Source of the DNA: an archaeon | GTDB lineage: Archaea; Asgardarchaeota; Thorarchaeia; Thorarchaeales; Thorarchaeaceae | Reading direction: 5' to 3' | DNA length: 32,000 nt | NCBI GenBank assembly: GCA_024275415.1 | Contig: JAJRZD010000125.1 | Coordinates: forward strand, 1 to 32,000 | Shown here: positions 1 to 25,188 of the stretch, piece by piece | Numbering within the stretch: the first letter of the stretch is position 1 | Layout of the letters: every line of letters begins with the position of its first letter | Program-made: the position numbers and the translations under genes | The notes under the pieces: model-generated | The model's input: only the letters and a program-made list of their open reading frames with translations | Database searches by the model: none | Told to the model about the DNA's origin: nothing

Positions 1-1107
1 TCCTGACTCCACCTCCATCGTGATATCCTTCAGGATGTAGTCCTGTTGCAAATAGCTGAAGTAGACATGATTGAATGTGATTTTGCCCTGTATCTCGTGT
101 TCAATAGGGTTCTGGGGGTCATGTACACTGTATTTGTAGTCCAAGATATAGAACGCTCGCTCAACAGATGCTGAAGCCCTTTGGTACATTCCGACCGACC
201 ATGAAAGGAATCTGGCTGGAAGCATCAGCATCCCAATGAGTGTGACAAATCCCACAAAGACGCCATATGTCAGGTCGCCCAAGATGTAGGAGTATCCGCC
301 GACATAGATGAGCAGCCCTATCACAAGTCCGAAGAGTGTGGGGAGCAATGGTCTATAGAACGCAAACAACCGGAATGCCTCGATCCTTGTTTCCGTGAAT
401 TTCCGGTTCTCCTCCTCGACACGCTTGGCTTCTCTCTCGCCGGCTGCATAGGACTTTATGACCTTCATCCCAATGATATTCTCGGCAAGGACGGAGCTGA
501 GACTCCCGTATTGCTCTCGTGCCTGATAGAACACGGGCCGGACCTTTCTTGCGAAGCTATAGATGAAGAAGAACATTATCGGGATGATTAGCAACATATA
601 TCCCGTGATAAGAGGACTTAGCGAATACATGGCGACATAGACGCCCAGCGTCATTATGATCCCGATGAAGATTATCCTGTAACCCCAGTACGTGAATTCC
701 CTGATCTGTGTCACATCAGTTGTGACCCGTGCGAGGATCTGACCACTTTCTTCAAGGTCATAAAATGCCATATCCTTCTCCATCAACGCGTGATAGAGGT
801 CTCGACGGATGTCATAGATGATATTCTGGGAAAATATCGCAGCACCATATCTCCCAGCAACATCAAATAACATATACAGGACTGCCAAAGACAGGTAAAG
901 CAGAACCTGCGGGATGAGAAGATCATATTGACCTCCGTAAATCGTTTCATCAATGATGTCTACCATTACCAGAGGGGTGAGGATGTTGAATACCTGCCCA
1001 ATACCCGCAAAGGCAAGGAACCCAAAACACAGTTTCTTATGTCGTAGTGCATATCCGTTCAACCTTCTCATGTAGCCCATAATCCAGCCCCTCTTATCGC
1101 CGTGCAT
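1..1107 (-). CDS. ABC exporter, fused transmembrane + nucleotide-binding domain (multidrug/lipid type); runs off the left edge
   Basis: Manual translation from ATG at 1107: MHGDKRGWIMGYMRRL..., hydrophobic helices, FYDLEESGQILARVTTD (ABC_membrane-like), ending ...FSYLQQDYILKDITMEVESG at base 1, which is the typical run-up to Walker A. Absent from the ORF track because it is truncated. Confidence 0.9.
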   Translation of the reverse strand, partial: MHGDKRGWIMGYMRRLNGYALRHKKLCFGFLAFAGIGQVFNILTPLVMVDIIDETIYGGQYDLLIPQVLLYLSLAVLYMLFDVAGRYGAAIFSQNIIYDIRRDLYHALMEKDMAFYDLEESGQILARVTTDVTQIREFTYWGYRIIFIGIIMTLGVYVAMYSLSPLITGYMLLIIPIMFFFIYSFARKVRPVFYQAREQYGSLSSVLAENIIGMKVIKSYAAGEREAKRVEEENRKFTETRIEAFRLFAFYRPLLPTLFGLVIGLLIYVGGYSYILGDLTYGVFVGFVTLIGMLMLPARFLSWSVGMYQRASASVERAFYILDYKYSVHDPQNPIEHEIQGKITFNHVYFSYLQQDYILKDITMEVESG

Positions 1108-13833: not shown

Positions 13834-15093
13834 CTATCCTGTGCGCTTCAAGAATTCTCTAATTGCGATTGCAGCAGACGCTCCCTCTCCAGCAGCTGAT
13901 ATGGCTTGGTTCGTGGCACCTGCCCTACAATCCCCGGCAGCAAAGACACCCATGACACTCGTCTGCATTCCAATGTTAGTTGTTATGAATCCCCGGTCGT
14001 CGGTCTTGATGGTGCCTGCAACGAATTTCGTGTTAGGCTTCAAACCAATGAAAACAAAAAGCCCGTCTGGCGAGTACTCCTTCAGCTCCCCGGTATCAAT
14101 GTGCCTTACCATCACGGACTTGAGCTGGTTCTCACCCTTGAGTTCTACCACCTCTGCATGTGTGATTATCTCAATTCCTTCTTTATCCCCAACCTTCTCC
14201 TGAAGGATTGGCGATGCAGACGGTTTCTCTCCCCGCACGATGATAGTCACTTTCGTGGCGAATTTCTCCTTCAGGTACAACGATTCTTCGAAAGCCGAGT
14301 CACCTCCACCAATGACGAAGAGTTCCTTCCCCTTGTAGAACGCGCCATCACAGGTGGCACAATAGTGGATACTGATTCCTGCTAGATCATCAGAGCCAGG
14401 GACTACTAATTCCCTGTAGTTGCTCCCTGTTGCCACAAGGACTGCATTGCAGAAGAGTTCCGTTCCGTCTGAGGTCACCACTTTCTTGTGGGCACATCTG
14501 TCGAATGACCCCCCGTCTTTCACATCGTGACAAGGAGAGATATCTACTACATCATATGGGAAGAGTATCTCGACACCGAACTTCTTGACTTGCTTCTTCA
14601 GATTCTCTGCGAACACCTCTCCTGTGATGCCTTCAGGAAAGCCAGGGTAATTGTCTAATCTGTTCGTGATGAATGCCTGCCCACCAATCGTCGAACGTTC
14701 GATTACTAGAACCTCATAATCATCTCGTGCAAGATAGAGTGCTGCAGTGAGGCCCGCTGGTCCTCCTCCAATGATGATCACATCATAGAATGTGCTAGCA
14801 GCCTCGGTGGCAAGTCCTAGTGCCTTTGCCAGTTCAACATTGCTAGGCTCGATCAAAAGATGCTCTGACTGCCCCTCCACTATCTGAATCACAGGGATTT
14901 TTTTCATCGGTTTTCCATACATCTTCTCATTCGCAGCAAGAACAAAGTCATAGGCTTCTTTTGATTCAGAGGTTTCAAGCTCGATATCTCTCCATTCATA
15001 ATGGATTCTTTGCTCACCTAGGTATTTTTTTGATCTTCTACAATCCGAACACCAATTGGCGCCGTAAACAACAACCTTCCTCTTTTCACTCAT
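13834..15093 (-). CDS. trxB: Glutaredoxin/NrdH-like domain fused to thioredoxin-disulfide reductase
   Basis: N-terminal YGANWCSDC; FAD motif IIGGGPAGLTAA, active site HYCATCDG, GGGDSA, GVFAAGD. Confidence 0.9.
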   Translation of the reverse strand: MSEKRKVVVYGANWCSDCRRSKKYLGEQRIHYEWRDIELETSESKEAYDFVLAANEKMYGKPMKKIPVIQIVEGQSEHLLIEPSNVELAKALGLATEAASTFYDVIIIGGGPAGLTAALYLARDDYEVLVIERSTIGGQAFITNRLDNYPGFPEGITGEVFAENLKKQVKKFGVEILFPYDVVDISPCHDVKDGGSFDRCAHKKVVTSDGTELFCNAVLVATGSNYRELVVPGSDDLAGISIHYCATCDGAFYKGKELFVIGGGDSAFEESLYLKEKFATKVTIIVRGEKPSASPILQEKVGDKEGIEIITHAEVVELKGENQLKSVMVRHIDTGELKEYSPDGLFVFIGLKPNTKFVAGTIKTDDRGFITTNIGMQTSVMGVFAAGDCRAGATNQAISAAGEGASAAIAIREFLKRTG

Positions 15094-16472: not shown

Positions 16473-17117
16473 TCATCTTATCGCTTTCAGAGCTCTACTT
16501 GCAACGAACCAGCTTATGTTTCCGAGCATCTCGTGTGGGAGATAGAATATCGAATTTCTGTCAAAGAGCATACGGGCACTTGCTGGGAACTCCTCGTCAG
16601 CCTCTTCAAAGATTATGAGCACTTTTACCATGGGGAGAAAGGACAGCTCAAACCCTACATCTCCGTAGTCTACTCTCTTCGCACCTAACCGCTCGAATGC
16701 TGTATAGAGCTTCTCCCTATTCTCAATAAAAGCAGCAAGGAGTGCTTTGATGTCTTCTTCGTCAAATGAATACCTGCAAGCCCACGACCCTCTCAATGTG
16801 TTGAACTTCACCCATTCGTTCCCGATGCCCTTGTCCTTTGCCTTGCTGTAATAGAAGAGATATGGAATCAACCGGCTGGGTGATGTTTCTGTATTTGTAA
16901 ACGTATCGACAGTCCTTCCTGTTTCAAAATATAATCGGATACCAAGAATGTCCACATATTCGCTTCCCAGTCCAAAATGGTTCCTGATGGACTGGATGTC
17001 ATCCTTGAAATTCTCCCAGCTCCACATTGCTGAACTCGTATCGAACTGCTCGATGTCGTGCTTATGCGCTATCTCTCGCGCGACACCCATCCAATACTCT
17101 AGAATATCGTCCGGCAT
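16473..17117 (-). CDS. DUF3786-like protein
   Basis: C-terminal LSFLPMVKVLIIFEEADEEFPASARMLFD...LPHE resembles DUF3786; AGGTGA 6 nt before ATG. Confidence 0.75.
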   Translation of the reverse strand: MPDDILEYWMGVAREIAHKHDIEQFDTSSAMWSWENFKDDIQSIRNHFGLGSEYVDILGIRLYFETGRTVDTFTNTETSPSRLIPYLFYYSKAKDKGIGNEWVKFNTLRGSWACRYSFDEEDIKALLAAFIENREKLYTAFERLGAKRVDYGDVGFELSFLPMVKVLIIFEEADEEFPASARMLFDRNSIFYLPHEMLGNISWFVASRALKAIR

Positions 17118-17172
17118 AGAAAATCACCTACTCTGATACATCCGTTCCTATCAGTTTTTACAAACGCCATGC

Positions 17173-17964
17173 CTATTCCTTCTTGGCTTTCTCAGGTGCC
17201 GACCTGCAATCCTCAATTCCTGCAGCCTCGCATACAGCATAGCGTGCCTGATACCCTGCAACATGGAGGAGCGCATCACCGACTTCTCTATCCTTAGCCA
17301 TTGACGCCGTGCACGGGTATGCGTGATGGGCTTTAGAGATCACATCGAATAGGTCATCTGTATCTGCTATCGACCGTCCTCTGACCTTCTGGCTGACATA
17401 CCATGTACATCCGCAAGGAGCAGAACGTTTTGGCCCGATCTCGGCAATGATGTCGCCTTTCATGTCCACATAATGGATTGGTCGCCCTAGTCTGTACTGC
17501 TCGATGAACTCGTCAATCAAAGCACCTTCTCCTGGTTCGAGAGTACAGAATGGCTTTGGAAACGCGGATTCAATACCTATCTCATCAAGGGTTTCCTTGA
17601 CTTGCGCGCGCAAACCTGGGGGTATCCATGTTGGATCCTCGATTGGCGCCAAGACGGCTCTCGCACCTGTTATCTTGATCATGTGATCGACCGAAGCAAT
17701 GATGTCGTGGTGGATTGCGACAATCAATAGGAGGTCGCACTTTTCTAGCCCGATTTCGTTGATGTATTGCTCAGGGTCTTCGATAATGGTGGGTGAGGGG
17801 GGGTCAATGGGATAGATTCCCACAATATCGCCCACATAAGATCCATAGGTAGATCTGCATTCTGAGCAGCTAGGCTCACATGCCTGACAGAATGTCCGGA
17901 AGTTGATTAGGTTCCCTATAACTCGCTCAGCGAAGACATCGCCGTAAATGGTCGCTATTCGCAT
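17173..17964 (-). CDS. DUF166-like protein with Cys-rich insert
   Basis: FAERVIGNLIN, FPKPFCTL, RSAPCGCTWYV, HHAYPCTASM, GDALLHVAG; ATG 17964 lies 5 nt after AGGTGG. Confidence 0.75.
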   Translation of the reverse strand: MRIATIYGDVFAERVIGNLINFRTFCQACEPSCSECRSTYGSYVGDIVGIYPIDPPSPTIIEDPEQYINEIGLEKCDLLLIVAIHHDIIASVDHMIKITGARAVLAPIEDPTWIPPGLRAQVKETLDEIGIESAFPKPFCTLEPGEGALIDEFIEQYRLGRPIHYVDMKGDIIAEIGPKRSAPCGCTWYVSQKVRGRSIADTDDLFDVISKAHHAYPCTASMAKDREVGDALLHVAGYQARYAVCEAAGIEDCRSAPEKAKKE

Positions 17965-18090
17965 AGTCGCCACCTAGAAGTGTAAAACGTATCTTAGCAT
18001 GTTACATAAGGATGTTGTTTGCGGCTCTTTCCATCTCCCTAACGGAAATATAATAACTTACAGATGCGCTGACGAATCTGGTGATGCAAC

Positions 18091-18498
18091 ATGGTTCTAG
18101 GTGACCTGCTCTTCCCGAATATCGAAATGAAGCTCGTTATCACACATGATTTTATGAGCGATGTGGAAGCCGCACAGAACAGGATGTCCAATGAGTACCG
18201 GAATGCGACTGCCCTCGTTCGGTTGAGCAAAGGGGATATGCAGAAGCTGGGTCTGAAAGGTGAATCGAATGTGAGCATCCAATCAAAGGCTGGTTCAGTT
18301 GTTGTACATGCGGTAATGGACGAGAACGCTAAGGATGGCCTCGCCGTCGTCCCCTATGGTCCTTGGGCACTTGCACTTGTAGATGTCCCACCTGATGGAT
18401 CTCCGCCACAGTACCACGGGATTCCTGTGACCGTGAAACGGAGCGATGAACAGATTACTCCTCTTCTTGACCTTTTTCAGGACTCTTCATCGTCTTGA
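18091..18498 (+). CDS. fwdD: Formylmethanofuran dehydrogenase subunit D-like protein (divergent)
   Basis: SNEYRNATALVRLSKGDMQKLGL, GSVVV, VPYGPWA, GIPVTV fit the FwdD fold; GGTGA 6 nt before ATG 18091. Confidence 0.82.
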   Translation: MVLGDLLFPNIEMKLVITHDFMSDVEAAQNRMSNEYRNATALVRLSKGDMQKLGLKGESNVSIQSKAGSVVVHAVMDENAKDGLAVVPYGPWALALVDVPPDGSPPQYHGIPVTVKRSDEQITPLLDLFQDSSSS

Positions 18499-19816
18499 TT
18501 AGTTTGTCCACACGACCTCGTTCGACCTGCAGATGGTGTCTTGGCTTCTTCTTGAGGAGGTTTCTCAGATCCTGAGCAGCCCGCATTGCTGCTTTCCTTT
18601 CACCATCTACAGAGTCCCATGCTTCATGTTGTTTGATTTGCTGGGATTCTTTCCTTGCGATATCGACCACGATATCTCTTTCGAACAACCCACTCGATGG
18701 TGGTGATATCCCTACAATGGATTCGAAGGCCCGTTTTCTTGCCGCTTCCCATTCTTTTGCTCTTTCAATCTGGTCTACGTTGTACCCTTCTCGTTTGATG
18801 TCCAACACATCATATGGACATGCTATGACACATGCACCACAATACATGCAATGCTCCAAGATCTCTATCTTGTCTGCCGTTCCTGTGGGGTATATTGCCT
18901 TGATAGGGCAGATGTTGAAGCAATTATGGCACCCTGTCGGATCACATTTATCAAGCTGCTTGATAATGACCTCGCCTGAGAATGGTTTTGTCACTTCAAG
19001 TGCTTCGTATGGGCATACCTCTGCACAGAGTCCACATTTTACGCAAGTTGTGTTATCATGCTTGAGTTCTCCTGTTATTTCAGGCTGTTTGATAGTACGC
19101 GGTCCCGATTCTATGCATTCTACAGAAATCGCATCATCCGGACATATATCTGCACAGAGACCACAATAGTCACAGTGATCCTCATTGACTCTTATCCCGA
19201 CAGCAGGGCGGAAATCTGGAGGCTCCACGGCTTCTGACCAATAGATGGAGATTGCATCAGGACATAGAATCTCACACAGTCCGCAGAAGGAGCATTTCTT
19301 CTCATCGATGTTGATGGTGCCCTTTGCGTATTCTTCACCTTGATACGTGACCAAAGATTCCTTCCGGTTCACTTTCACATCCACTTCAAGGGAGTCTGTC
19401 GGACAAACCTTCGTGCAAAGCACACACGGGGCACATTTCTCTTCATCAATGCGATGGATTCCATCAATCCGCTCATACTCGTTGATGGCTCCCTCTCCCT
19501 CATAACGTGCTTCGAAAGCTCTGAATATACATGCTGAGTCACAGAGGCCACAAAAGGTGCATAGGTCTGGATCCACATTCACAAGGGGTGCTCCCTCAAT
19601 CAGTCCTGAAGCAGTTTCCTTTACGGGTCCCATGGTTATGGCATCCCATGGGCAGATCAAACAGACTCCACATCCCACACATTTTGCTATCTTGTGATCA
19701 AGCACTCTTGTCAGGATTGAGGTCTTCCAGATATAGATTACAGTGCCGTTTGTAACATCCATCGTGACGGTAGGCTTCTCTCCTACTGAAATCCCAGTTC
19801 GCTTTCCCTTATCCAC
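18455..19816 (-). CDS. fwdF: FwdF-like polyferredoxin (8 [4Fe-4S] motifs)
   Basis: Eight ferredoxin motifs: CVGCGVCLICP, CTFCGLCDSAC, CAPCVLCTKVCP, CSFCGLCEILCP, CDYCGLCADICP, CVKCGLCAEVCP, CDPTGCHNCFNICP, CMYCGACVIACP. GTG start at 19816 overlaps the hdrA stop and follows GAAGGTG. Confidence 0.85.
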   Translation of the reverse strand: MDKGKRTGISVGEKPTVTMDVTNGTVIYIWKTSILTRVLDHKIAKCVGCGVCLICPWDAITMGPVKETASGLIEGAPLVNVDPDLCTFCGLCDSACIFRAFEARYEGEGAINEYERIDGIHRIDEEKCAPCVLCTKVCPTDSLEVDVKVNRKESLVTYQGEEYAKGTINIDEKKCSFCGLCEILCPDAISIYWSEAVEPPDFRPAVGIRVNEDHCDYCGLCADICPDDAISVECIESGPRTIKQPEITGELKHDNTTCVKCGLCAEVCPYEALEVTKPFSGEVIIKQLDKCDPTGCHNCFNICPIKAIYPTGTADKIEILEHCMYCGACVIACPYDVLDIKREGYNVDQIERAKEWEAARKRAFESIVGISPPSSGLFERDIVVDIARKESQQIKQHEAWDSVDGERKAAMRAAQDLRNLLKKKPRHHLQVERGRVDKLIKTMKSPEKGQEEE

Positions 19817-22247
19817 GGCCGGCCACCTTCTTGGTTTTAGTACGATGTGAGGCTTTGGCATTCTTGGAGTTTTCACTTCCAAGCGGCCCTAGCTCCGTGA
19901 TAGTATTCACAAAGTCCTCAATCTGTTCGGCGAAAAGATCTGCTTCTGCTGCTGACACACTGCCAAAGTATAGCCGCCGCCCATCTATCCCGATCGCCTC
20001 CAACACTTCACGGAGATTGTCTGTCCTGTCCTTAGCGTATCTAGCTCCTGTCCTGTAGTGACAATCTTGGACATGGCAACCCATCACCGCGACCCCATCC
20101 GCCCCTTCTGAGAATGCAGTGAGGATGTTGTCGATATTAAGCCTTCCAGTACATGGCACTTGGATGTTGATTATATTTGGCGGATAGCGAATCCTTGAGG
20201 TCCCAGCTCTGTCTGCTGCGCCATAGGCACACCACCTGCACAGAAAACCAACAATCGCCGGCCTAAGTGGATTGTAATTCACAGCAGCCCGTGTTGCATT
20301 ATCAAGTTGGTCGTTGTTCAGACATGGAAGATCCATCGCACTAGACGGACACGCACCTACGCATCCACCACACCCTCGACAGGCCGCAATATCGATAATA
20401 GGAACCTTTCCATCATTGAACTTTATCGCATTTGGCGCACACACCTGTTCGCAGAGCCTACATCCGATACAAAGACTCTCATCACAAGATGGCGCACAGA
20501 CTTCCGAAATGATATGCCCTGCAACGAAGAGGGTCTTTACCTTCGAAGCCGCCAGTCCTGCGTGTGCGACCGAATCGGCAATGTCTTTCGGCCCCTGAGC
20601 GACCCCTGCAAGGAATACCCCTTTAGAGTGTGTACTACTCGGGCCAAGTTTTGGATGTTGTTCCAAGAAGAAACCATTCTCATCCAGCGGTGTCTTGAGC
20701 ATCTTTGACAGTTCCACGTTAGTAGGGCTCGCATCCATCCCGACCATCAATACCACGAGATCGACTTCCATCTCTACCAGTCTATGGAGCAGAGTATCCT
20801 CTCCTCTCACGACAGTCTTCCCAGATATAGGGTCCTGAGCAATCTCACCTACCGCCCCGCGCACAAAGACTGCTTTGAACTCCTTTGCCGCACGCAGATA
20901 GAGCTCTTCTTGTCCTTTCCCAAAAGTGCGAATATCATTATAGAACACGTATGATTCAACATCTGGCAATTGCTGTTTGAGTTGGATGACCTCTTTCACT
21001 GCCGCAGCACAGCATACCCTGCTACAATAAGGTCTATTGAATCTGATTGACCTGCTTCCAACACATAGCACAAAGACGACTCGTTTCGGCGGCTTTCCGT
21101 CTGAAGGTCTGACCACTTTTCCACATGTGGGTCCTGCGGGATTGATCAATCGCTCGAACTCTAACGATGTTACTACATCAGGGTTCACCCCATATCCGAG
21201 CTCCTCCACGACCGTCGGGTCGAAAGTTTCGTATCCAGTAGCAGCCACAATCGCTCCGACATTGATGATTTCGGTTTCTTCCACCTCGTCATAACGGAGT
21301 GATTTTGGCTCACAAACGCCTGCACATGACTGACACCCGATGCAATTATCGATATCGATGTAGGGTGCGATTGGCACAGTATCCATTGAGGGTCTGACCA
21401 TCGCCTTTCTCTTGCCAATTCCACTGTTGTACTCATCAGGCACCTCCACTGGACATACCTCAATGCACCGGTTGCACCCCGTGCAAGTGTCTATATCCAC
21501 ATATCGTGCTTTTTGTTCGACCGTCACTTTGTATTGTCCTACGCTGCCTCGAATCCGCTTTACTTGAGCAAGAGTCATTATCCGTATCTTCTCGTGTCTT
21601 GACGCTCTTGCCATCATCGGGCCAAGAATACAGATGCCGCAATCGAATGTCGGGAAAAGTTTATCCCACTTTGCCATATGCCCGCCAATGAAACCCTCTT
21701 TCTCTATGATTACTACTTCTATCCCTGAATCAGCCAATTCTAACGCTGCAGTCAATCCTGCGACTCCTCCACCAATTATCAACGCGCGTTGTGAGATAGG
21801 TGTCTTATACAATGACACAGGTTCAGAGTCACGGATCTTGGCTATGCTCGTATCAATGATTGCTCCTGCTTTCAGCGTTGCTGTTTCTGGGTCATCATAG
21901 TGTACCCAACTGCAATGTTCTCTAATGTTTGCCATCTGCAAATGCCCAGCGTCGAGACCTGCCTCTCTGACAGCATCAGAGAACAATTCCTTGTGGAGCA
22001 GAGGTGAGCATCCAGCAATGACCACTTTTTCAACATCGCTCTGTTTTATTTTCTTGATGAGATCATGCACTCCCTGTTCTGAACAGAGATGGTCATCCAC
22101 CTCCACTAATGGGATGCCCTCTTTCTCATATTTCTCCCTAAGCATTTCCACATCGATGACATCGGCAATGTTGGTTCCACAACGACAAAGGAACACACCT
22201 ATGTTCTTTTTCTGCTTATCCTTGCTTTTTCGTTTCTTACGACTCAG
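19809..22247 (-). CDS. hdrA: Heterodisulfide reductase subunit A fused to C-terminal MvhD [2Fe-2S] domain
   Basis: IGVFLCRCG, AGCSP, REHCSW, GGGVAG, FPTFDCGIC, TSLEFER, LCVGSR, YCSRVCC, inserted and C-terminal ferredoxins; MvhD motifs FLCRWCAYGAAD, VPCTGR, GCHVQDCHY. The start is uncertain: CTG at 22247 is proposed, while the ORF track uses an internal GTG at 22196. Confidence 0.93.
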   Translation of the reverse strand: MSRKKRKSKDKQKKNIGVFLCRCGTNIADVIDVEMLREKYEKEGIPLVEVDDHLCSEQGVHDLIKKIKQSDVEKVVIAGCSPLLHKELFSDAVREAGLDAGHLQMANIREHCSWVHYDDPETATLKAGAIIDTSIAKIRDSEPVSLYKTPISQRALIIGGGVAGLTAALELADSGIEVVIIEKEGFIGGHMAKWDKLFPTFDCGICILGPMMARASRHEKIRIMTLAQVKRIRGSVGQYKVTVEQKARYVDIDTCTGCNRCIEVCPVEVPDEYNSGIGKRKAMVRPSMDTVPIAPYIDIDNCIGCQSCAGVCEPKSLRYDEVEETEIINVGAIVAATGYETFDPTVVEELGYGVNPDVVTSLEFERLINPAGPTCGKVVRPSDGKPPKRVVFVLCVGSRSIRFNRPYCSRVCCAAAVKEVIQLKQQLPDVESYVFYNDIRTFGKGQEELYLRAAKEFKAVFVRGAVGEIAQDPISGKTVVRGEDTLLHRLVEMEVDLVVLMVGMDASPTNVELSKMLKTPLDENGFFLEQHPKLGPSSTHSKGVFLAGVAQGPKDIADSVAHAGLAASKVKTLFVAGHIISEVCAPSCDESLCIGCRLCEQVCAPNAIKFNDGKVPIIDIAACRGCGGCVGACPSSAMDLPCLNNDQLDNATRAAVNYNPLRPAIVGFLCRWCAYGAADRAGTSRIRYPPNIINIQVPCTGRLNIDNILTAFSEGADGVAVMGCHVQDCHYRTGARYAKDRTDNLREVLEAIGIDGRRLYFGSVSAAEADLFAEQIEDFVNTITELGPLGSENSKNAKASHRTKTKKVAGRG

Positions 22248-22308
22248 GGGAACCGCCTCGTGTTCATGGATTACTTGTACTCGACCAGTGACGTTTCCAT
22301 TTTCTAAG

Positions 22309-22316
22309 TATAAATA
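22309..22316. promoter_or_regulatory. TATA box candidate in the hdrA / fwdG divergent region
   Basis: TATAAATA on plus; TTTATA on minus, about 60 nt upstream of the proposed hdrA start. Confidence 0.5.
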
Positions 22317-22423
22317 TGAGCATTAGGGACACCGCCTCCATTTATGCAACTACCATATGATTCATGTACCGTTGATTGTAACCTCTGAAGGAGCTTTCCA
22401 AAGACACTCTCTGAACCTATGAC

Positions 22424-22897
22424 ATGGAGACCTCAAAAGTGAAACTTAATCCCATGGAGATGTATAATCTCCTTCCCAAGACCAACTGTAGACAATGTGA
22501 GCCGAAGACTTGCATGGCATTCGCCACCAAGCTTGCTCTTGGCGACGTGAACCCTGACGATTGCCCTCCGCTGCTTGAAGAAGGATTCGAGGCGAATCTA
22601 CAAAAGATTCGTGACTTGGTTGCCCCAATGCAGTCCGCTGCAGAAACAGGTATCAAGCTTGATGAGTCTAAATGCACAGGTTGTAGCAACTGTGTCGTAG
22701 CATGTCCGGTAGATGTCGCTGCTGAACCTCCTACAAGTGAGGGAAAAGCCGCCCAAGTAGGAACCACAGTGTTCTGGGTGGAGAATGGGATTTCAAAGAT
22801 TATCAACTTGGAGAAATGCAGACGCTTTCCCCCTAATCGTCTGAACTGCAGAGTTTGCGAGCAATACTGCTGCACTAATGCGATCGAAATATGGTAG
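22424..22897 (+). CDS. fwdG: FwdG-like ferredoxin with an N-terminal CdhE-type Fe-S domain
   Basis: LLPKTNCRQCEPKTCMAFA...CP domain, then CTGCSNCVVACPV, GK...VFWVENG, and C-x9-CRVCEQYCC. Confidence 0.8.
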   Translation: METSKVKLNPMEMYNLLPKTNCRQCEPKTCMAFATKLALGDVNPDDCPPLLEEGFEANLQKIRDLVAPMQSAAETGIKLDESKCTGCSNCVVACPVDVAAEPPTSEGKAAQVGTTVFWVENGISKIINLEKCRRFPPNRLNCRVCEQYCCTNAIEIW

Positions 22898-24199
22898 GTG
22901 GCACTGATGGAAGAGATAGTTTGTACAGGATGTTATTTGCTCTGTGATGATTCCACAATTGAAGTCAAAGATGGCTCTTTGAGGTCTCTAGGACTCTGCA
23001 GGCTGGGACATGCACATCTTGAGTCTGCTATTGAACATGCAACACCCAAGGCATTTGTCCGGACGGATGGCAAAAGTAATGAAATTGCGATTGACGATGC
23101 AATTCAACAAGCGGCAGACATCCTTCTTGAGGGTGGTTCACCTCTTCTTATCGGGTGGTCTCAGACCTCCGACGAAGTGATTAAAGAGGGCTTGGATATG
23201 GCTGCTAGAGTGAAGGGCTTCTTTGATTCCATGTCCAGTTTGGGAACATCACAAGCAATGCGCCATGAGATGCACTCATTGAAGCTAGAAGCCGACCTAG
23301 AATATGTTAGGAACCACGGTGAGTTCATCATTTACTGGGGGACTGACCCTAGTGAGAGCCTGCACAGACACCCGAGCAGGTTCGCAGTCCTACCTCGTGG
23401 AGAGAAAATCCCCGAGGGTGTAGAGAGCAGGACTCTTGGCGTGGTCGATGTGCGACAAACAGAAACGATGAAAATAGCCAACCATCGTTTCATCATTCCC
23501 ATAGGGAGCGATGCTGAGCTTCTTGAAACATTGGCAGCAGATATCACTGGTACCTCGAAGATTGATAGTGATGTTCTTGGGATACCAGCGACTGAGGTCA
23601 TAGGCTTCTCCCAGCGGTTCCAGAAATCAGACTGTACTGCGATTTTCTATGGGAGTGGGATTTTGAATTCGGGGAAGCATGCAGATAATCTCGCTGGAAT
23701 ACAGAAGCTTGTTGAGGCAATCAGGTCTATAGGCAAGGAAGCGTTTGCCTTCCCGATGTTCACCGAACCCAACTCGATGGGTGTGATAAAGCATGTGGCC
23801 GATGTCACCTCAGTTCCATGCTCTATTGACTATTCCTCTGGAACTGGTGTTCATAATTCCGATGTGACAGCACTTCAGAAGCTGGTACAAGGCGAGCATT
23901 CAACATCGCTTGTTGTGGGGGATGATGTTCTGGCAGCACTCCCAAGACCCGCCGCAATGGCACTGGCAAAGACACGGATTATTTACATCGGTACCCCGAA
24001 TGCTATCTGCGATAGGTTTGCAGAGATTTCCATCCATACCCCTGATCAGATGCTCGAATCTGGTACAACGATGGAACGGATTGACATGGTCACAGTGACC
24101 TTGAAGGGACTTACACCCCCTGTAGGTTCTAAGCCCACTATACTGGAGGTCATTACGAAGCTCAATGCAGCAATCCATGACCGAGGTGGCGTAAAGTGA
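22898..24199 (+). CDS. fwdB: Formylmethanofuran dehydrogenase subunit B-like protein lacking W/Mo catalytic residues
   Basis: CTGCYLLCDD...C cluster, PLLIGWSQTS, IIYWGTDP, RHPSRF, VVDVRQTET follow the FwdB backbone. The canonical SVCHG and MRGHYN motifs are replaced. Confidence 0.85.
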   Translation: MALMEEIVCTGCYLLCDDSTIEVKDGSLRSLGLCRLGHAHLESAIEHATPKAFVRTDGKSNEIAIDDAIQQAADILLEGGSPLLIGWSQTSDEVIKEGLDMAARVKGFFDSMSSLGTSQAMRHEMHSLKLEADLEYVRNHGEFIIYWGTDPSESLHRHPSRFAVLPRGEKIPEGVESRTLGVVDVRQTETMKIANHRFIIPIGSDAELLETLAADITGTSKIDSDVLGIPATEVIGFSQRFQKSDCTAIFYGSGILNSGKHADNLAGIQKLVEAIRSIGKEAFAFPMFTEPNSMGVIKHVADVTSVPCSIDYSSGTGVHNSDVTALQKLVQGEHSTSLVVGDDVLAALPRPAAMALAKTRIIYIGTPNAICDRFAEISIHTPDQMLESGTTMERIDMVTVTLKGLTPPVGSKPTILEVITKLNAAIHDRGGVK

Positions 24200-25002
24200 A
24201 GGTCGCAGTCGCAGGAAAGGGCGGAGTAGGAAAAACGACCGTCGCAGGAACCATTGCCCGCTTGCTTGGTCGTGATGGACTGAAGATACTTGCCGTGGAT
24301 GCTGATCCCAGCTACACGCTCTGGTCGGCGATAGGCATCCCTCAAGAGGTCGCAGACACAATTGTTCCCCTGACCGAGAACGAGGAGCTCGTGGAAGAAC
24401 GGTTGCAGATCAAGGAGGTTGGACCTACCTCGACAGGCGTGTTCAAGCTGAACCCACGAGTCGATGACCTCGCCATAAAATTCGCGGTTCCTGGTCCTGA
24501 CAATGTGCATCTCCTTGTGGCCGGTACTGTTGATACTGGAGGTTCCGGATGCATGTGTCCTTCAGCCACATTGCTGAAGTCGTTGATGCGTTATCTTGTT
24601 ATTGGAACCGACGAAGCTTTTGTGATGGACATGGATGCTGGTGTTGAGAATCTTGGACGTGGCACGACCCGAGGGATGGACGCGTTGATTGTCGTTGTCG
24701 AGCCGGGACGGAGGTCTCTTGACATCATGGGGAAAATAAAGAAGCTTGCAGCAGACATTGAGGTCGGACTAATTCTTGCCGTCGGGAACAAGGTAGTCAC
24801 TCCAGAAGACTCGGAGATGATCCGTGAGCGCGTTTCAGCCGAAGGGATCCCTCTCCTAGGGCTTGTCCCTCTAGATGAATCGATTCGAAAGGCTGACCGA
24901 AAGGGAATTGCACCTATCGATTTGAACGACCAATCTCCCGCCATGCTGGAGATTAGGGACATAAAAGAAAGACTTGTCGAGAGAATCGCCCAAGTTTCAT
25001 AA
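24196..25002 (+). CDS. cooC: CODH nickel-insertion ATPase (CooC/AcsF family)
   Basis: Deviant Walker A GKGGVGKTT, VDADP, Ni-binding GCMCP, DMDAGVENLGRG; GTGA overlap with the fwdB-like stop. Confidence 0.93.
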   Translation: MKVAVAGKGGVGKTTVAGTIARLLGRDGLKILAVDADPSYTLWSAIGIPQEVADTIVPLTENEELVEERLQIKEVGPTSTGVFKLNPRVDDLAIKFAVPGPDNVHLLVAGTVDTGGSGCMCPSATLLKSLMRYLVIGTDEAFVMDMDAGVENLGRGTTRGMDALIVVVEPGRRSLDIMGKIKKLAADIEVGLILAVGNKVVTPEDSEMIRERVSAEGIPLLGLVPLDESIRKADRKGIAPIDLNDQSPAMLEIRDIKERLVERIAQVS

Positions 25003-25188
25003 TGAAACCCGCTCGTTTTCTTTTCAAAAACATATCTCTCCTCAGAAGGGTTTTCGTAATCGAACTTCTCTTTCCGCTTAATTAATGAAATCGAACATCA
25101 TTTTTTACTTTCAGCCGTCCATTCATAACTTTCTTATGGTCGAATGTTTCAATTCAAAAGCACCACGCACACAGGAACTGAGCTAAAC

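What the first reader, a model, noticed from the sequence alone, without database searches (positions are those of the whole stretch)
18455..22247. HdrA-MvhD fusion translationally coupled to FwdF, without hdrB/C or mvhA/G nearby
Seen: the hdrA-mvhD stop (TAA 19811-19809) overlaps the fwdF GTG start (19816), with an SD inside the hdrA tail, forming a two-gene unit. HdrA keeps TSLEFER and the Lys after YCSRVCC. No hdrB, hdrC, mvhA, mvhG, fwdA or fwdC is in the window. Established: in the methanogen Fdh/Mvh-Hdr-Fmd megacomplex, the FmdF polyferredoxin docks on HdrA and carries the low-potential bifurcated electrons. Inference: this genome hard-wires the HdrA-FwdF interface genetically, and the high-potential acceptor and the donor docking on MvhD may differ from those of methanogens.
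Basis: partly seen in the sequence, partly recalled or inferred. Interest (0 to 1): 0.75.

Follow-up and report, generated by a model that had tools for sequence, protein, structure and literature searches.

The report
HdrA-MvhD and polyferredoxin operon, Thorarchaeota
The overlapping gene pair is real, but it is the Asgard version of the hdrA2-polyferredoxin operon already known from Methanosarcina, part of a widespread, biochemically untested "Fwd-Hdr" gene set that here has a disabled CO2-reductase-like subunit and sits at the head of the acetyl-CoA synthase genes.

Summary
On the minus strand an HdrA-MvhD fusion (19809-22196) ends in TAA inside GTGGATAA. The GTG of an FwdF-like polyferredoxin with eight [4Fe-4S] motifs (18455-19816) lies in that same octamer, 6 nt after an AGGTGG.

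The pairing is not special to this genome. HdrA-MvhD lies directly upstream of the polyferredoxin in 66 of 75 informative archaeal loci, from Asgard, Bathyarchaeia and Methanomethylicia to Methanosarcinales and Geoglobus, usually with an overlapping start. It is the hdrA2-polyferredoxin operon of Methanosarcina acetivorans (MA2867-68), whose hdrC2B2 are also unlinked.

That five-gene set recurs in Asgard, Bathyarchaeia, Methanomethylicia and Methanosarcinaceae. It matches the "Fwd-Hdr" cluster noted in 2025 in Methanonezhaarchaeum.

In Thorarchaeota the FwdB-like protein has lost the catalytic Cys, His and Arg. fwdG'-fwdB' run straight into cooC-cdhABCDE.

A complex model places the polyferredoxin on HdrA's inserted ferredoxin domain (score 0.76, best control 0.37). 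This may reflect solved methanogen complexes.

hdrBC, mvhAGD and fwdABCD exist elsewhere in the genome. The donor, the high-potential acceptor and the end of the low-potential wire remain open. This scan has flagged the same module on other DNA (at least 13 genomes).

The parts
19809..22196 (-). hdrA-mvhD fusion (795 aa from GTG 22196). A conserved Lys/Arg-rich leader in orthologues aligns with a CTG at 22247, so the true start may lie there.
   Evidence: Pfam FlpD/MvhD covers residues 648-770, alongside Fer4 and FAD domains. NCBIfam HdrA2 NF040770 scores 899.6 bits, below the cut-off of 1100. It aligns end to end with solved HdrA and MvhD chains. All cluster cysteines, K401 and R349 are invariant, and E348 nearly so, in 27 orthologues. 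N-terminus comparison.
18455..19816 (-). FwdF-type polyferredoxin (453 aa from GTG 19816) with eight [4Fe-4S] motifs and a C-terminal extension of about 90 aa that FwdF lacks.
   Evidence: FwdF NF042909 scores 225.4 bits, below the cut-off of 375. Residues 18-364 align with FwdF 5T5I_F residues 3-344. 32 cysteines are invariant or nearly invariant (8 x 4), and W356 is invariant. It is the only FwdF-like gene in the genome.
19809..19828 (-). Gene junction: SD-like AGGTGG (19828-19823), GTG start (19816-19814) and hdrA stop TAA (19811-19809).
   Evidence: Read directly from the sequence. In related loci an overlapping start is available in 52 of 66, and it is the only option in 14.
22197..22423 (.). 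Divergent intergenic region between hdrA and fwdG', with an AT-rich TATA-like element near 22309-22320.
   Evidence: Read from the sequence. No promoter test was possible.
22424..22897 (+). FwdG-like ferredoxin with an N-terminal CFeSP/RnfB-type Fe-S domain (157 aa).
   Evidence: Pfam PF04060 covers residues 17-49, plus Fer4. PDB matches to FwdG chains and to the N-termini of CFeSP large subunits. Conserved beside the pair in 28 loci.
22898..24199 (+). FwdB-like protein (433 aa). The N-terminal [4Fe-4S] motif is kept; the catalytic Cys, His and Arg are replaced.
   Evidence: TIGR03129 scores 249.4 bits, below the cut-off of 327.8. It aligns end to end with FwdB 5T5I_B: SVCHG becomes SLGTS and PMRGHYN becomes PMFTEPN.
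18091..18498 (+). FwdD-like protein (135 aa), convergent with the polyferredoxin and overlapping its 3' end by 44 nt.
   Evidence: Pfam PF01568. PDB matches to FwdD/FmdD chains. It holds the same position in Thor, Hermod and Bathyarchaeia loci.
24196..32000 (+). cooC (24196-25002, 4-nt overlap with fwdB') followed by cdhA, B, C, D, E (CODH/ACS), running off the window.
   Evidence: cdhA TIGR00314 scores 1075.7 bits. Pfam CO_dh, CdhC and CdhD. The same order is seen in eight Thorarchaeota loci; the Hermod locus shows cooC beside fwdB'.

Best explanation
The two genes encode a flavin-based electron-bifurcating core, HdrA with MvhD fused to it, and its dedicated eight-cluster polyferredoxin. They are made in matched amounts from one coupled message. 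This is the Thorarchaeota orthologue of the hdrA2-polyferredoxin operon of Methanosarcinales. It is also the centre of the five-gene 'Fwd-Hdr' set: fwdG', fwdB', hdrA-mvhD, the polyferredoxin and fwdD'.

Proposed mechanism:
- The polyferredoxin docks on the inserted ferredoxin domain of HdrA (clusters HA5/HA6). It carries the low-potential electron of the bifurcated pair along its cluster chain.
- The high-potential electron goes to an HdrBC pair encoded elsewhere.
- The fused MvhD is the entry point for a donor that is still unknown.
- In this genome the far end of the wire is most likely the co-encoded FwdG'/FwdB'D' module. That module has lost its CO2-reducing residues, so it probably acts as a scaffold or relay. 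Beyond it lies the CODH/ACS, whose operon these genes head. The canonical FwdABCD elsewhere in the genome is the alternative end.

Shown: the gene anatomy, the conservation of the pair and of the five-gene set, and the loss of catalytic residues.

Inferred: complex formation (in silico only), bifurcation, the direction of electron flow and all partners.
For: - Junction and SD-like motif.
- Domain content, and alignment with solved HdrA, MvhD and FwdF over nearly the whole length of each.
- FAD-site Lys and Glu and all cluster cysteines are conserved in 27 orthologues.
- HdrA-MvhD is directly upstream of the polyferredoxin in 66 of 75 informative loci. In 64 of the 66, at most 250 nt separate the hdrA stop from the first aligned polyferredoxin residue. 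An overlapping start is available in 52.
- The window's HdrA sits in a clade of polyferredoxin-linked HdrA-MvhD proteins from Asgard, Bathyarchaeia and Methanomethylicia.
- FwdG', FwdB' and often FwdD' lie within 8 kb of the pair in Thor, Hermod, Bathyarchaeia, Hecatellales, Methanomethylicia and Methanosarcinaceae. They also lie close in most Asgard genomes where both genes fall on one contig.
- hdrC-hdrB follow the polyferredoxin in Bathyarchaeia, Hecatellales and Methanothrix loci.
- Complex model of HdrA 125-640 with the polyferredoxin: ipSAE 0.76, best of 3 controls 0.37. That mark was reached by 58 of 80 solved complexes and 2 of 110 mismatched pairs. The runs share at least 82% of contacts and partner pLDDT is at least 80. 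The interface is HdrA 230-302 (both cluster motifs of the inserted ferredoxin domain) against polyferredoxin 12-111 and 354-386, which includes the invariant W356.
- Literature: hdrA2 is in an operon with a polyferredoxin and hdrC2B2 are unlinked (PMC5296606, PMC4561719, PMC2838876). A Fwd-Hdr cluster was proposed in strain YNP3N (PMC12700198). FmdF or MvhB receives electrons from HdrA HA5/HA6 in solved supercomplexes (PMC13580544).
Against: - No expression or protein data exist for this organism.
- The complex score may come from the model's memory of solved HdrA-FmdF complexes. HdrA was modelled as a truncated monomer, although HdrA is a dimer.
- In M. acetivorans a partially reconstituted recombinant polyferredoxin neither replaced ferredoxin nor stimulated HdrA2B2C2. 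It was also not needed for electron transfer from CODH/ACS (PMC5296606).
- PMC13580544 considers FmdF groups 3-6, found outside Class I methanogens, Methanomicrobiales and Methanocellales, unlikely to build supercomplexes like the solved ones.
- Both proteins score below NCBIfam's curated cut-offs.
- The HdrBC partner is not identified. The best candidate, C73:41466-42808, is only 32% identical to a polyferredoxin-linked HdrB.
- With FwdB' lacking Cys, His and Arg, the wire has no obvious catalytic end within its own cluster.
Confidence: 0.65

Rival explanations
1. One reading: the polyferredoxin is the FwdF subunit of the canonical formylmethanofuran dehydrogenase (fwdDBA on C113, fwdC on C118). 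HdrA would feed bifurcated electrons directly into CO2 reduction to formyl-methanofuran, as in methanogen Hdr-Fmd supercomplexes.
For: It is the only FwdF-like gene in the genome. The canonical fwdD-B-A and fwdC loci carry no F or G subunit. Every Asgard family in the sample that has the polyferredoxin also has FwdA. Solved supercomplexes show this wiring (PMC13580544; PDB 7BKB and 9SW6).
Against: About half of the FwdA-positive Asgard genomes sampled lack the polyferredoxin (48 against 96 of 151). That includes 8 genomes of this same family, so Fwd works without it. The polyferredoxin travels with its own FwdG'B'D' paralogues.
Confidence: 0.2
2. The Fwd-Hdr model of Kohtz et al. 2025: FwdB'D' oxidises formate (or reduces CO2). 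FwdG' and the polyferredoxin couple this to HdrA(BC) for bifurcation.
For: The gene content matches that proposed for strain YNP3N (PMC12700198). FwdB' keeps its N-terminal [4Fe-4S] motif and the fold of FwdB over nearly its whole length.
Against: In this genome and all Thorarchaeota orthologues the metal-ligating Cys is Gly, and the catalytic His and Arg are replaced. The Arg is missing in all 27 FwdB' sequences compared, and the His in 26. No hdrBC lies in the cluster.
Confidence: 0.07
3. The pair works as in M. acetivorans HdrA2B2C2. HdrA2 oxidises F420H2 or reduced ferredoxin and reduces a disulfide through an unlinked HdrBC. The polyferredoxin serves only as an optional input from ferredoxin-reducing enzymes.
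For: Orthology by synteny with MA2867-68. The activities of HdrA2B2C2 have been measured (PMC5296606). hdrCB follow the pair in Methanothrix and Bathyarchaeia loci.
Against: cofH, needed for F420 synthesis, was not found in this 92.9% complete genome, and the Mer-like hits fall below the cut-off. I know of no CoM-S-S-CoB metabolism in Thorarchaeota, but I did not search this genome for it. The conserved link to FwdG'B'D' is left unexplained.
Confidence: 0.15

Closest known systems
hdrA2-polyferredoxin operon of Methanosarcina acetivorans (MA2868-MA2867; called 'hdrA1 pfd' in Rohlin & Gunsalus 2010), part of HdrA2B2C2 (Yan, Wang & Ferry 2017)
   Same: HdrA with a C-terminal MvhD fusion is followed on the same strand by a polyferredoxin of about 440 aa with eight clusters, usually with overlapping stop and start. 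hdrCB are encoded elsewhere. FwdG-, FwdB- and FwdD-like genes lie a few kb upstream on the opposite strand in Methanosarcinaceae loci.
   Different: Identity is 40-43% for HdrA and 33-40% for the polyferredoxin. The host is a non-methanogenic Asgard archaeon. Here FwdB' has also lost the Cys that Methanosarcinaceae keep. The set abuts cooC-cdhABCDE. FwdD' has moved to the other side of the pair.
'Fwd-Hdr' gene cluster of Ca. Methanonezhaarchaeum strain YNP3N (Kohtz et al., Sci Adv 2025, PMC12700198)
   Same: A second FwdBD set is colocated with Hdr, together with an FwdF polyferredoxin and FwdG that are proposed to link them electronically. It is separate from the FwdABCD of the Wood-Ljungdahl pathway.
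   Different: In YNP3N, HdrB and HdrC are in the cluster and formate oxidation is proposed. Here hdrBC are absent from the locus, FwdB' lacks Cys, His and Arg, and the genes head the CODH/ACS operon.
Methanogen Hdr-Fmd supercomplexes (Fdh-Hdr-Fmd of Methanospirillum hungatei, PDB 7BKB; Mvh-Hdr-Fmd of Methanothermobacter marburgensis, PDB 9SW6; PMC13580544)
   Same: An FwdF-type polyferredoxin takes the low-potential electron from HdrA. The predicted contact here is on the same inserted ferredoxin domain.
   Different: In those complexes FmdF is encoded with and bound to catalytic FmdABCD, and MvhD is a separate subunit. Here the polyferredoxin is encoded with HdrA, has a C-terminal extension of about 90 aa, and FwdA and FwdC are absent from the locus.
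fwdG2B2D2 cluster of Methanosarcina (Rohlin & Gunsalus 2010, PMC2838876)
   Same: A three-gene FwdG/B/D set without FwdA or FwdC, of unknown role. Its composition and order match the genes found upstream of hdrA2 in Methanosarcinaceae loci. The equivalence is my inference; locus tags could not be checked.
   Different: Methanosarcinaceae FwdB' keeps the Cys. In the Thorarchaeota version FwdD' is detached and the Cys is lost.

Membership tests
HdrA2-type HdrA-MvhD fusion (NCBIfam NF040770) | Full HdrA architecture: N-terminal domain, FAD/thioredoxin-reductase-like domain, inserted and C-terminal ferredoxin domains, with cluster cysteines and the FAD-site Lys and Glu. | tested here: met
   Aligned with solved HdrA over residues 2-640. 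Cysteines, K401 and R349 are invariant, and E348 nearly so, in 27 orthologues.
HdrA2-type HdrA-MvhD fusion (NCBIfam NF040770) | MvhD domain fused to the C-terminus. | tested here: met
   PF02662 covers residues 648-770 at 3.4e-45. MvhD chains of 5ODC, 7BKB and 8RVU match residues 645-773.
HdrA2-type HdrA-MvhD fusion (NCBIfam NF040770) | Score above the curated cut-off (1100 bits). | tested here: not met
   899.6 bits. A paralogue on C34 scores 1027 bits, also below the cut-off.
HdrA2-type HdrA-MvhD fusion (NCBIfam NF040770) | F420H2- and ferredoxin-dependent heterodisulfide reduction together with HdrB2C2. | not testable with these tools
   This is a biochemical property (PMC5296606). cofH was not found in the genome.
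FwdF/FmdF polyferredoxin (NCBIfam NF042909) | Four fused ferredoxin domains with eight [4Fe-4S] motifs, collinear with FwdF. | tested here: met
   Eight four-Cys motifs are conserved. Residues 18-364 align with 5T5I_F residues 3-344.
FwdF/FmdF polyferredoxin (NCBIfam NF042909) | Score above the curated cut-off (375 bits). | tested here: not met
   225.4 bits.
FwdF/FmdF polyferredoxin (NCBIfam NF042909) | Encoded with, and a subunit of, catalytic FwdABCD. | tested here: not met
   FwdA is on C113 and FwdC on C118. In 66 of 75 loci the upstream gene is hdrA-mvhD. Physical association is not testable here.
'Fwd-Hdr' gene cluster (PMC12700198) | A second FwdB/FwdD set colocated with HdrA, FwdF and FwdG. 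| tested here: met
   FwdG' 22424-22897, FwdB' 22898-24199 and FwdD' 18091-18498 flank hdrA-mvhD and the polyferredoxin.
'Fwd-Hdr' gene cluster (PMC12700198) | HdrB and HdrC in the same cluster. | tested here: not met
   No CCG-domain match on contig C112. hdrCB are adjacent to the pair in Bathyarchaeia, Hecatellales and Methanothrix loci only.
'Fwd-Hdr' gene cluster (PMC12700198) | FwdB able to interconvert formate and CO2: metal-ligating Cys with the catalytic His and Arg. | tested here: not met
   Cys becomes Gly, His becomes Thr and Arg becomes Phe against 5T5I_B and the genome's own canonical FwdB.
Methanogen Hdr-Fmd supercomplex | The polyferredoxin is bound to HdrA at the inserted ferredoxin domain (HA5/HA6). 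| tested here: inconclusive
   In silico only: ipSAE 0.76 against a best control of 0.37, with the interface on HdrA 230-302. The pass may reflect likeness to solved complexes.

The most novel reading that the evidence does not exclude
In Thorarchaeota and related Asgard archaea the Fwd-Hdr set has been turned into a bifurcation-driven wire to the acetyl-CoA synthase. In this reading HdrA-MvhD splits electron pairs. The polyferredoxin, FwdG' (which carries a CFeSP-type Fe-S domain) and a cofactor-less FwdB'D' scaffold then pass the low-potential electron directly to CODH/ACS, replacing soluble ferredoxin. The electron would serve CO2 reduction to CO or reactivation of the corrinoid protein.
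Probability: 0.2. Interest if true: 0.75.

Novelty: new variant of a known kind. Interest (0 to 1): 0.42.

Why it matters
How non-methanogenic archaea that use the Wood-Ljungdahl pathway obtain electrons of low enough potential for CO2 reduction is unsettled. That question bears on models of Asgard metabolism and of syntrophy at the origin of eukaryotes.

This locus shows that the HdrA-polyferredoxin unit studied in Methanosarcina is an old, widely shared module. It also shows that the module's Fwd-like partner has been disabled in Thorarchaeota while staying linked to CODH/ACS.

That gives a concrete, testable candidate for a ferredoxin-independent electron route. It also points to Methanosarcina, which is genetically tractable and carries the orthologous genes, as a place to test it.

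The pair on its own adds only a new host lineage to a known operon.

Tried and rejected
- RNA evidence for co-transcription: no RNA holder was listed for window 18400-22950.
- Supplementary files of PMC13580544, to see which FmdF group this protein belongs to: none are held.
- Locus tags of fwdG2B2D2 in M. acetivorans: a search for MA2869-MA2872 found nothing relevant. The equivalence with the genes upstream of hdrA2 therefore remains an inference.
- Assigning the HdrBC partner by similarity: the best match to a polyferredoxin-linked Bathyarchaeia HdrB is an hdrCB pair at C73:41466-42808, not directly adjacent to an hdrA, at only 32% identity. That is too weak to call.
- Monophyly of polyferredoxin-linked HdrA: the quick tree puts the unlinked paralogues (C34, and the second HdrA of Methanolobus) between the Asgard/Bathyarchaeia/Methanomethylicia group and the euryarchaeal linked group, in an open fork with long branches. 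A single origin is neither shown nor excluded.
- F420H2 as donor: considered and down-weighted, because cofH was not found. This is not excluded, since the genome is 92.9% complete.
- Formate oxidation by FwdB'D': rejected for this genome because the catalytic residues are lost.
- The sigma-70 promoter/terminator scanner was not used, because it does not cover archaeal promoters.
- Only one complex job was available. It went to HdrA with the polyferredoxin, so the contacts of the polyferredoxin with FwdG'/FwdB' and with CdhA were not modelled.

Full report
**What is there**

The window is contig C112 of a 3.5-Mb, 92.9% complete genome. Earlier notes of this scan assign it to Thorarchaeota, and the nearest database proteins agree.

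On the minus strand lie two open reading frames:
- An ORF of 795 codons (19809-22196, first canonical start GTG).
- An ORF of 453 codons counted from GTG 19816 (18455-19816).

The first is an HdrA with MvhD fused to its C-terminus.
- Pfam finds FlpD/MvhD at residues 648-770, plus FAD and 4Fe-4S domains.
- The best NCBIfam model is HdrA2, NF040770, at 899.6 bits, below its cut-off of 1100.
- The protein aligns over residues 2-640 with solved HdrA chains and over 645-773 with solved MvhD chains.

The second is an FwdF-type polyferredoxin.
- NF042909 scores 225.4 bits, below its cut-off of 375.
- Residues 18-364 are collinear with FwdF of Methanothermobacter wolfeii (5T5I chain F, residues 3-344).
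- Eight four-cysteine motifs are conserved.
- About 90 further residues form a C-terminal extension that FwdF lacks.

The minus strand reads GAAGGTGGCCGGCCGTGGATAAGG.
- hdrA ends with TAA at 19811-19809.
- The polyferredoxin GTG is at 19816-19814, an 8-nt overlap.
- AGGTGG lies 6 nt upstream of the GTG.
- The GTG start matches the N-termini of homologues of about 450 aa. It is the only possible start in the closest relative (L026).
They are conserved across 27 orthologues: K401 and R349 invariant, E348 nearly so.
- No HdrB-type CCG domain, NiFe hydrogenase large subunit, FwdA or FwdC is on this contig.

One correction concerns the hdrA start. Position 22247 is a CTG, not a usual start codon. 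Orthologues nevertheless have a conserved Lys/Arg-rich leader that aligns with it, so the start is uncertain.

The pair is flanked by Fwd paralogues.
- Divergently upstream lies a 157-aa protein. It joins a CFeSP/RnfB-type Fe-S domain (PF04060) to an FwdG-like two-cluster ferredoxin.
- It is followed without a gap by an FwdB-like protein (TIGR03129, 249.4 bits, cut-off 327.8; aligned with FwdB 5T5I_B over nearly its whole length).
- Next comes cooC, which overlaps fwdB' by 4 nt, and then cdhA, B, C, D, E.
- Convergent with the polyferredoxin, and overlapping its 3' end by 44 nt, is an FwdD-like gene.

FwdB' keeps the N-terminal CxxCxxxC...C cluster motif. Where FwdB has SVCHG it reads SLGTS, and where FwdB has PMRGHYN it reads PMFTEPN. 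The metal-ligating Cys and the catalytic His and Arg are therefore all replaced. The genome's own canonical FwdB on C113 keeps all three.

**Conservation of the pair**

I searched one genome per species with an alignment of polyferredoxin homologues and kept 80 loci.
- Of 75 loci with enough upstream sequence, 66 have an HdrA-MvhD gene directly upstream on the same strand.
- In 64 of those 66, at most 250 nt separate the hdrA stop from the first aligned polyferredoxin residue.
- In 52 an overlapping start codon is available. In 14 it is the only choice. In 32 it is the 4-nt ATGA/GTGA/TTGA type.
- The hosts are Thorarchaeota, Hermodarchaeum, a Promethearchaeota bin, Bathyarchaeia, Hecatellales, Methanomethylicia, Methanosarcinaceae, Methanothrix, Methanoperedens, Methanocellales, Methanoliparia and Geoglobus.
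- The nine exceptions are all labelled Methanosarcinales, ANME-2, Methanogaster or Methanobacteriota/Methanomicrobia bins. This agrees with a published remark that in ANME the polyferredoxin is often found elsewhere in the genome (10.1101/2021.09.25.461819).

**Conservation of the wider gene set**

- FwdG' and FwdB', often with FwdD', lie within 8 kb of the pair in Thor, Hermod, Bathyarchaeia, Hecatellales, Methanomethylicia and a Nitrososphaerota-labelled bin. The same holds in Methanolobus and Methanosarcina.
- In Methanosarcinaceae the order is fwdG'-fwdB'-fwdD' on the opposite strand, about 1.7 kb from hdrA2.
- In a sample of 151 Asgard genomes, 48 have the polyferredoxin, nearly always as a single copy.
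- In most cases where the polyferredoxin and a close FwdB' fall on one contig they lie 2-7 kb apart. Two families are exceptions.
- hdrC-hdrB follow the polyferredoxin in Bathyarchaeia, Hecatellales and Methanothrix loci, but not in Thorarchaeota or Methanosarcina.

**Comparison with what is known**

[quoted passage not shown] Rohlin and Gunsalus call the pair 'hdrA1 pfd' and showed by PCR that it is an operon (PMC2838876).
- The same 2010 paper lists a three-gene fwdG2B2D2 cluster of unknown role in all three Methanosarcina genomes.
- In 2025 Kohtz et al. described a 'Fwd-Hdr' organisation in the cultured methanogen YNP3N. There a second FwdBD is colocated with HdrABC, FwdF and FwdG. They proposed that it couples formate oxidation to heterodisulfide and ferredoxin reduction (PMC12700198). 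I was led to that paper by earlier notes of this scan and read the passage myself.
- A 2026 structural study shows electrons leaving HdrA through HA5/HA6 into polyferredoxins. It states that FmdF groups 3-6, found outside Class I methanogens, Methanomicrobiales and Methanocellales, are uncharacterised (PMC13580544).

The pair is therefore a new host lineage for a known operon, and the five-gene set is a known but untested cluster type. Three things are distinctive here and in other Thorarchaeota:
- The FwdB' Cys is lost. Methanosarcinaceae, Methanomethylicia and the Nitrososphaerota-labelled bin keep it.
- hdrBC are absent from the locus.
- fwdG'-fwdB' are placed at the head of cooC-cdhABCDE. 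This holds in eight Thorarchaeota loci; the Hermod locus shows cooC beside fwdB'.

**Rest of the genome**

- C34 carries hdrA(mvhD)-hdrC-hdrB-hdrA.
- C97 carries a GltD-HdrA fusion, hdrC, hdrB, hdrA, an MvhD-like gene, mvhG and mvhA. C46 carries mvhD, mvhG and mvhA.
- Canonical fwdD-B-A is on C113 and fwdC on C118.
- The polyferredoxin in the window is the only FwdF-like gene.
- cofH was not found.

**Does the polyferredoxin bind HdrA?**

I modelled HdrA residues 125-640 with the whole polyferredoxin, each chain supplied as an alignment of orthologues.
- The score (ipSAE) was 0.76 in three runs, against a best control of 0.37.
- That mark was reached by 58 of 80 solved complexes and 2 of 110 mismatched pairs.
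- The runs share at least 82% of contacts, and partner pLDDT is at least 80.
- The confident contacts join HdrA 230-302, which holds both cluster motifs of the inserted ferredoxin domain, to the first ferredoxin domain of the polyferredoxin (residues 12-111). They also reach residues 354-386 at the start of the C-terminal extension, including the invariant W356.
- This is the site used in solved methanogen complexes. Because such complexes are solved, the pass may show likeness rather than independent evidence.

**Most likely working**

HdrA-MvhD is a flavin-based bifurcating core, and the polyferredoxin is its low-potential wire. The two are made together by translational coupling. The high-potential branch needs an HdrBC from elsewhere, and the donor at the fused MvhD is unknown.

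The end of the wire is the main open point. I rank the options as follows:
1. The co-encoded FwdG'/FwdB'D' acting as a non-catalytic relay towards CODH/ACS.
2. The canonical FwdABCD. Every Asgard family with the polyferredoxin also has FwdA, but half of the FwdA-positive genomes lack the polyferredoxin.
3. A Methanosarcina-like ferredoxin- or F420-dependent disulfide reductase.

Formate oxidation by FwdB'D' is unlikely here because the catalytic residues are gone.

**Verdict**

The pair alone is ordinary for archaea with this module. The Thorarchaeota form of the wider module is a variant of a known, untested cluster. This scan has already flagged the module in at least 13 other genomes.

Noticed in passing
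window 22196-22247 (minus strand); L019:2201 region: The first canonical start of hdrA (GTG 22196) leaves only two residues before the first cluster cysteine. Orthologues share a Lys/Arg-rich leader of about 17 aa that aligns with a CTG at 22247. In L019 no ATG, GTG or TTG precedes the cysteine motif at all. A non-canonical start codon may be used.
   Followed up: partly
G000:C97:6529-7047 (L015): An MvhD/VhuD-like gene between hdrA and mvhG has two in-frame TGA codons.
   Followed up: no
window 24196-24199: fwdB' and cooC overlap by 4 nt, and fwdG' abuts fwdB' without a gap. The two Fwd-like genes therefore look like the first genes of the cooC-cdhABCDE operon.
   Followed up: partly
window 18455-18498: The FwdD-like gene (plus strand) and the polyferredoxin (minus strand) converge and overlap by 44 nt at their 3' ends. 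The same convergent layout is seen in other Thor, Hermod and Bathyarchaeia loci.
   Followed up: partly
window 16473-17973: DUF166 (17173-17973) and DUF3786 (16473-17117) genes follow the module on the minus strand. They are conserved at that place in Thorarchaeota loci; in a Promethearchaeota locus DUF166 lies next to cdhA.
   Followed up: no
G006:C1:920786-924079, G076:C3:96292-100266, G017:C11:23740-26781: In two Asgard families the FwdB'-type gene does not sit with the polyferredoxin. Instead it sits beside a divergent FwdA-like gene (250-310 bits, below the cut-off), which is a different arrangement of Fwd paralogues.
   Followed up: no
L031:3988-4029: In a Hecatellales locus the first polyferredoxin residues are read in the hdrA frame before its stop. 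This suggests a frameshift in the assembly or an unusual junction.
   Followed up: no
window 13834-15093: A thioredoxin-reductase-like protein has an N-terminal glutaredoxin domain (419 aa), a possible disulfide-handling enzyme a few kb from the Hdr genes.
   Followed up: no
G000, whole genome: The F420 FO-synthase subunit cofH was not found, and the Mer-like matches are far below the family cut-off. Yet the genome has FwdABCD and CODH/ACS. The cofactor use of its methyl branch is unclear.
   Followed up: partly
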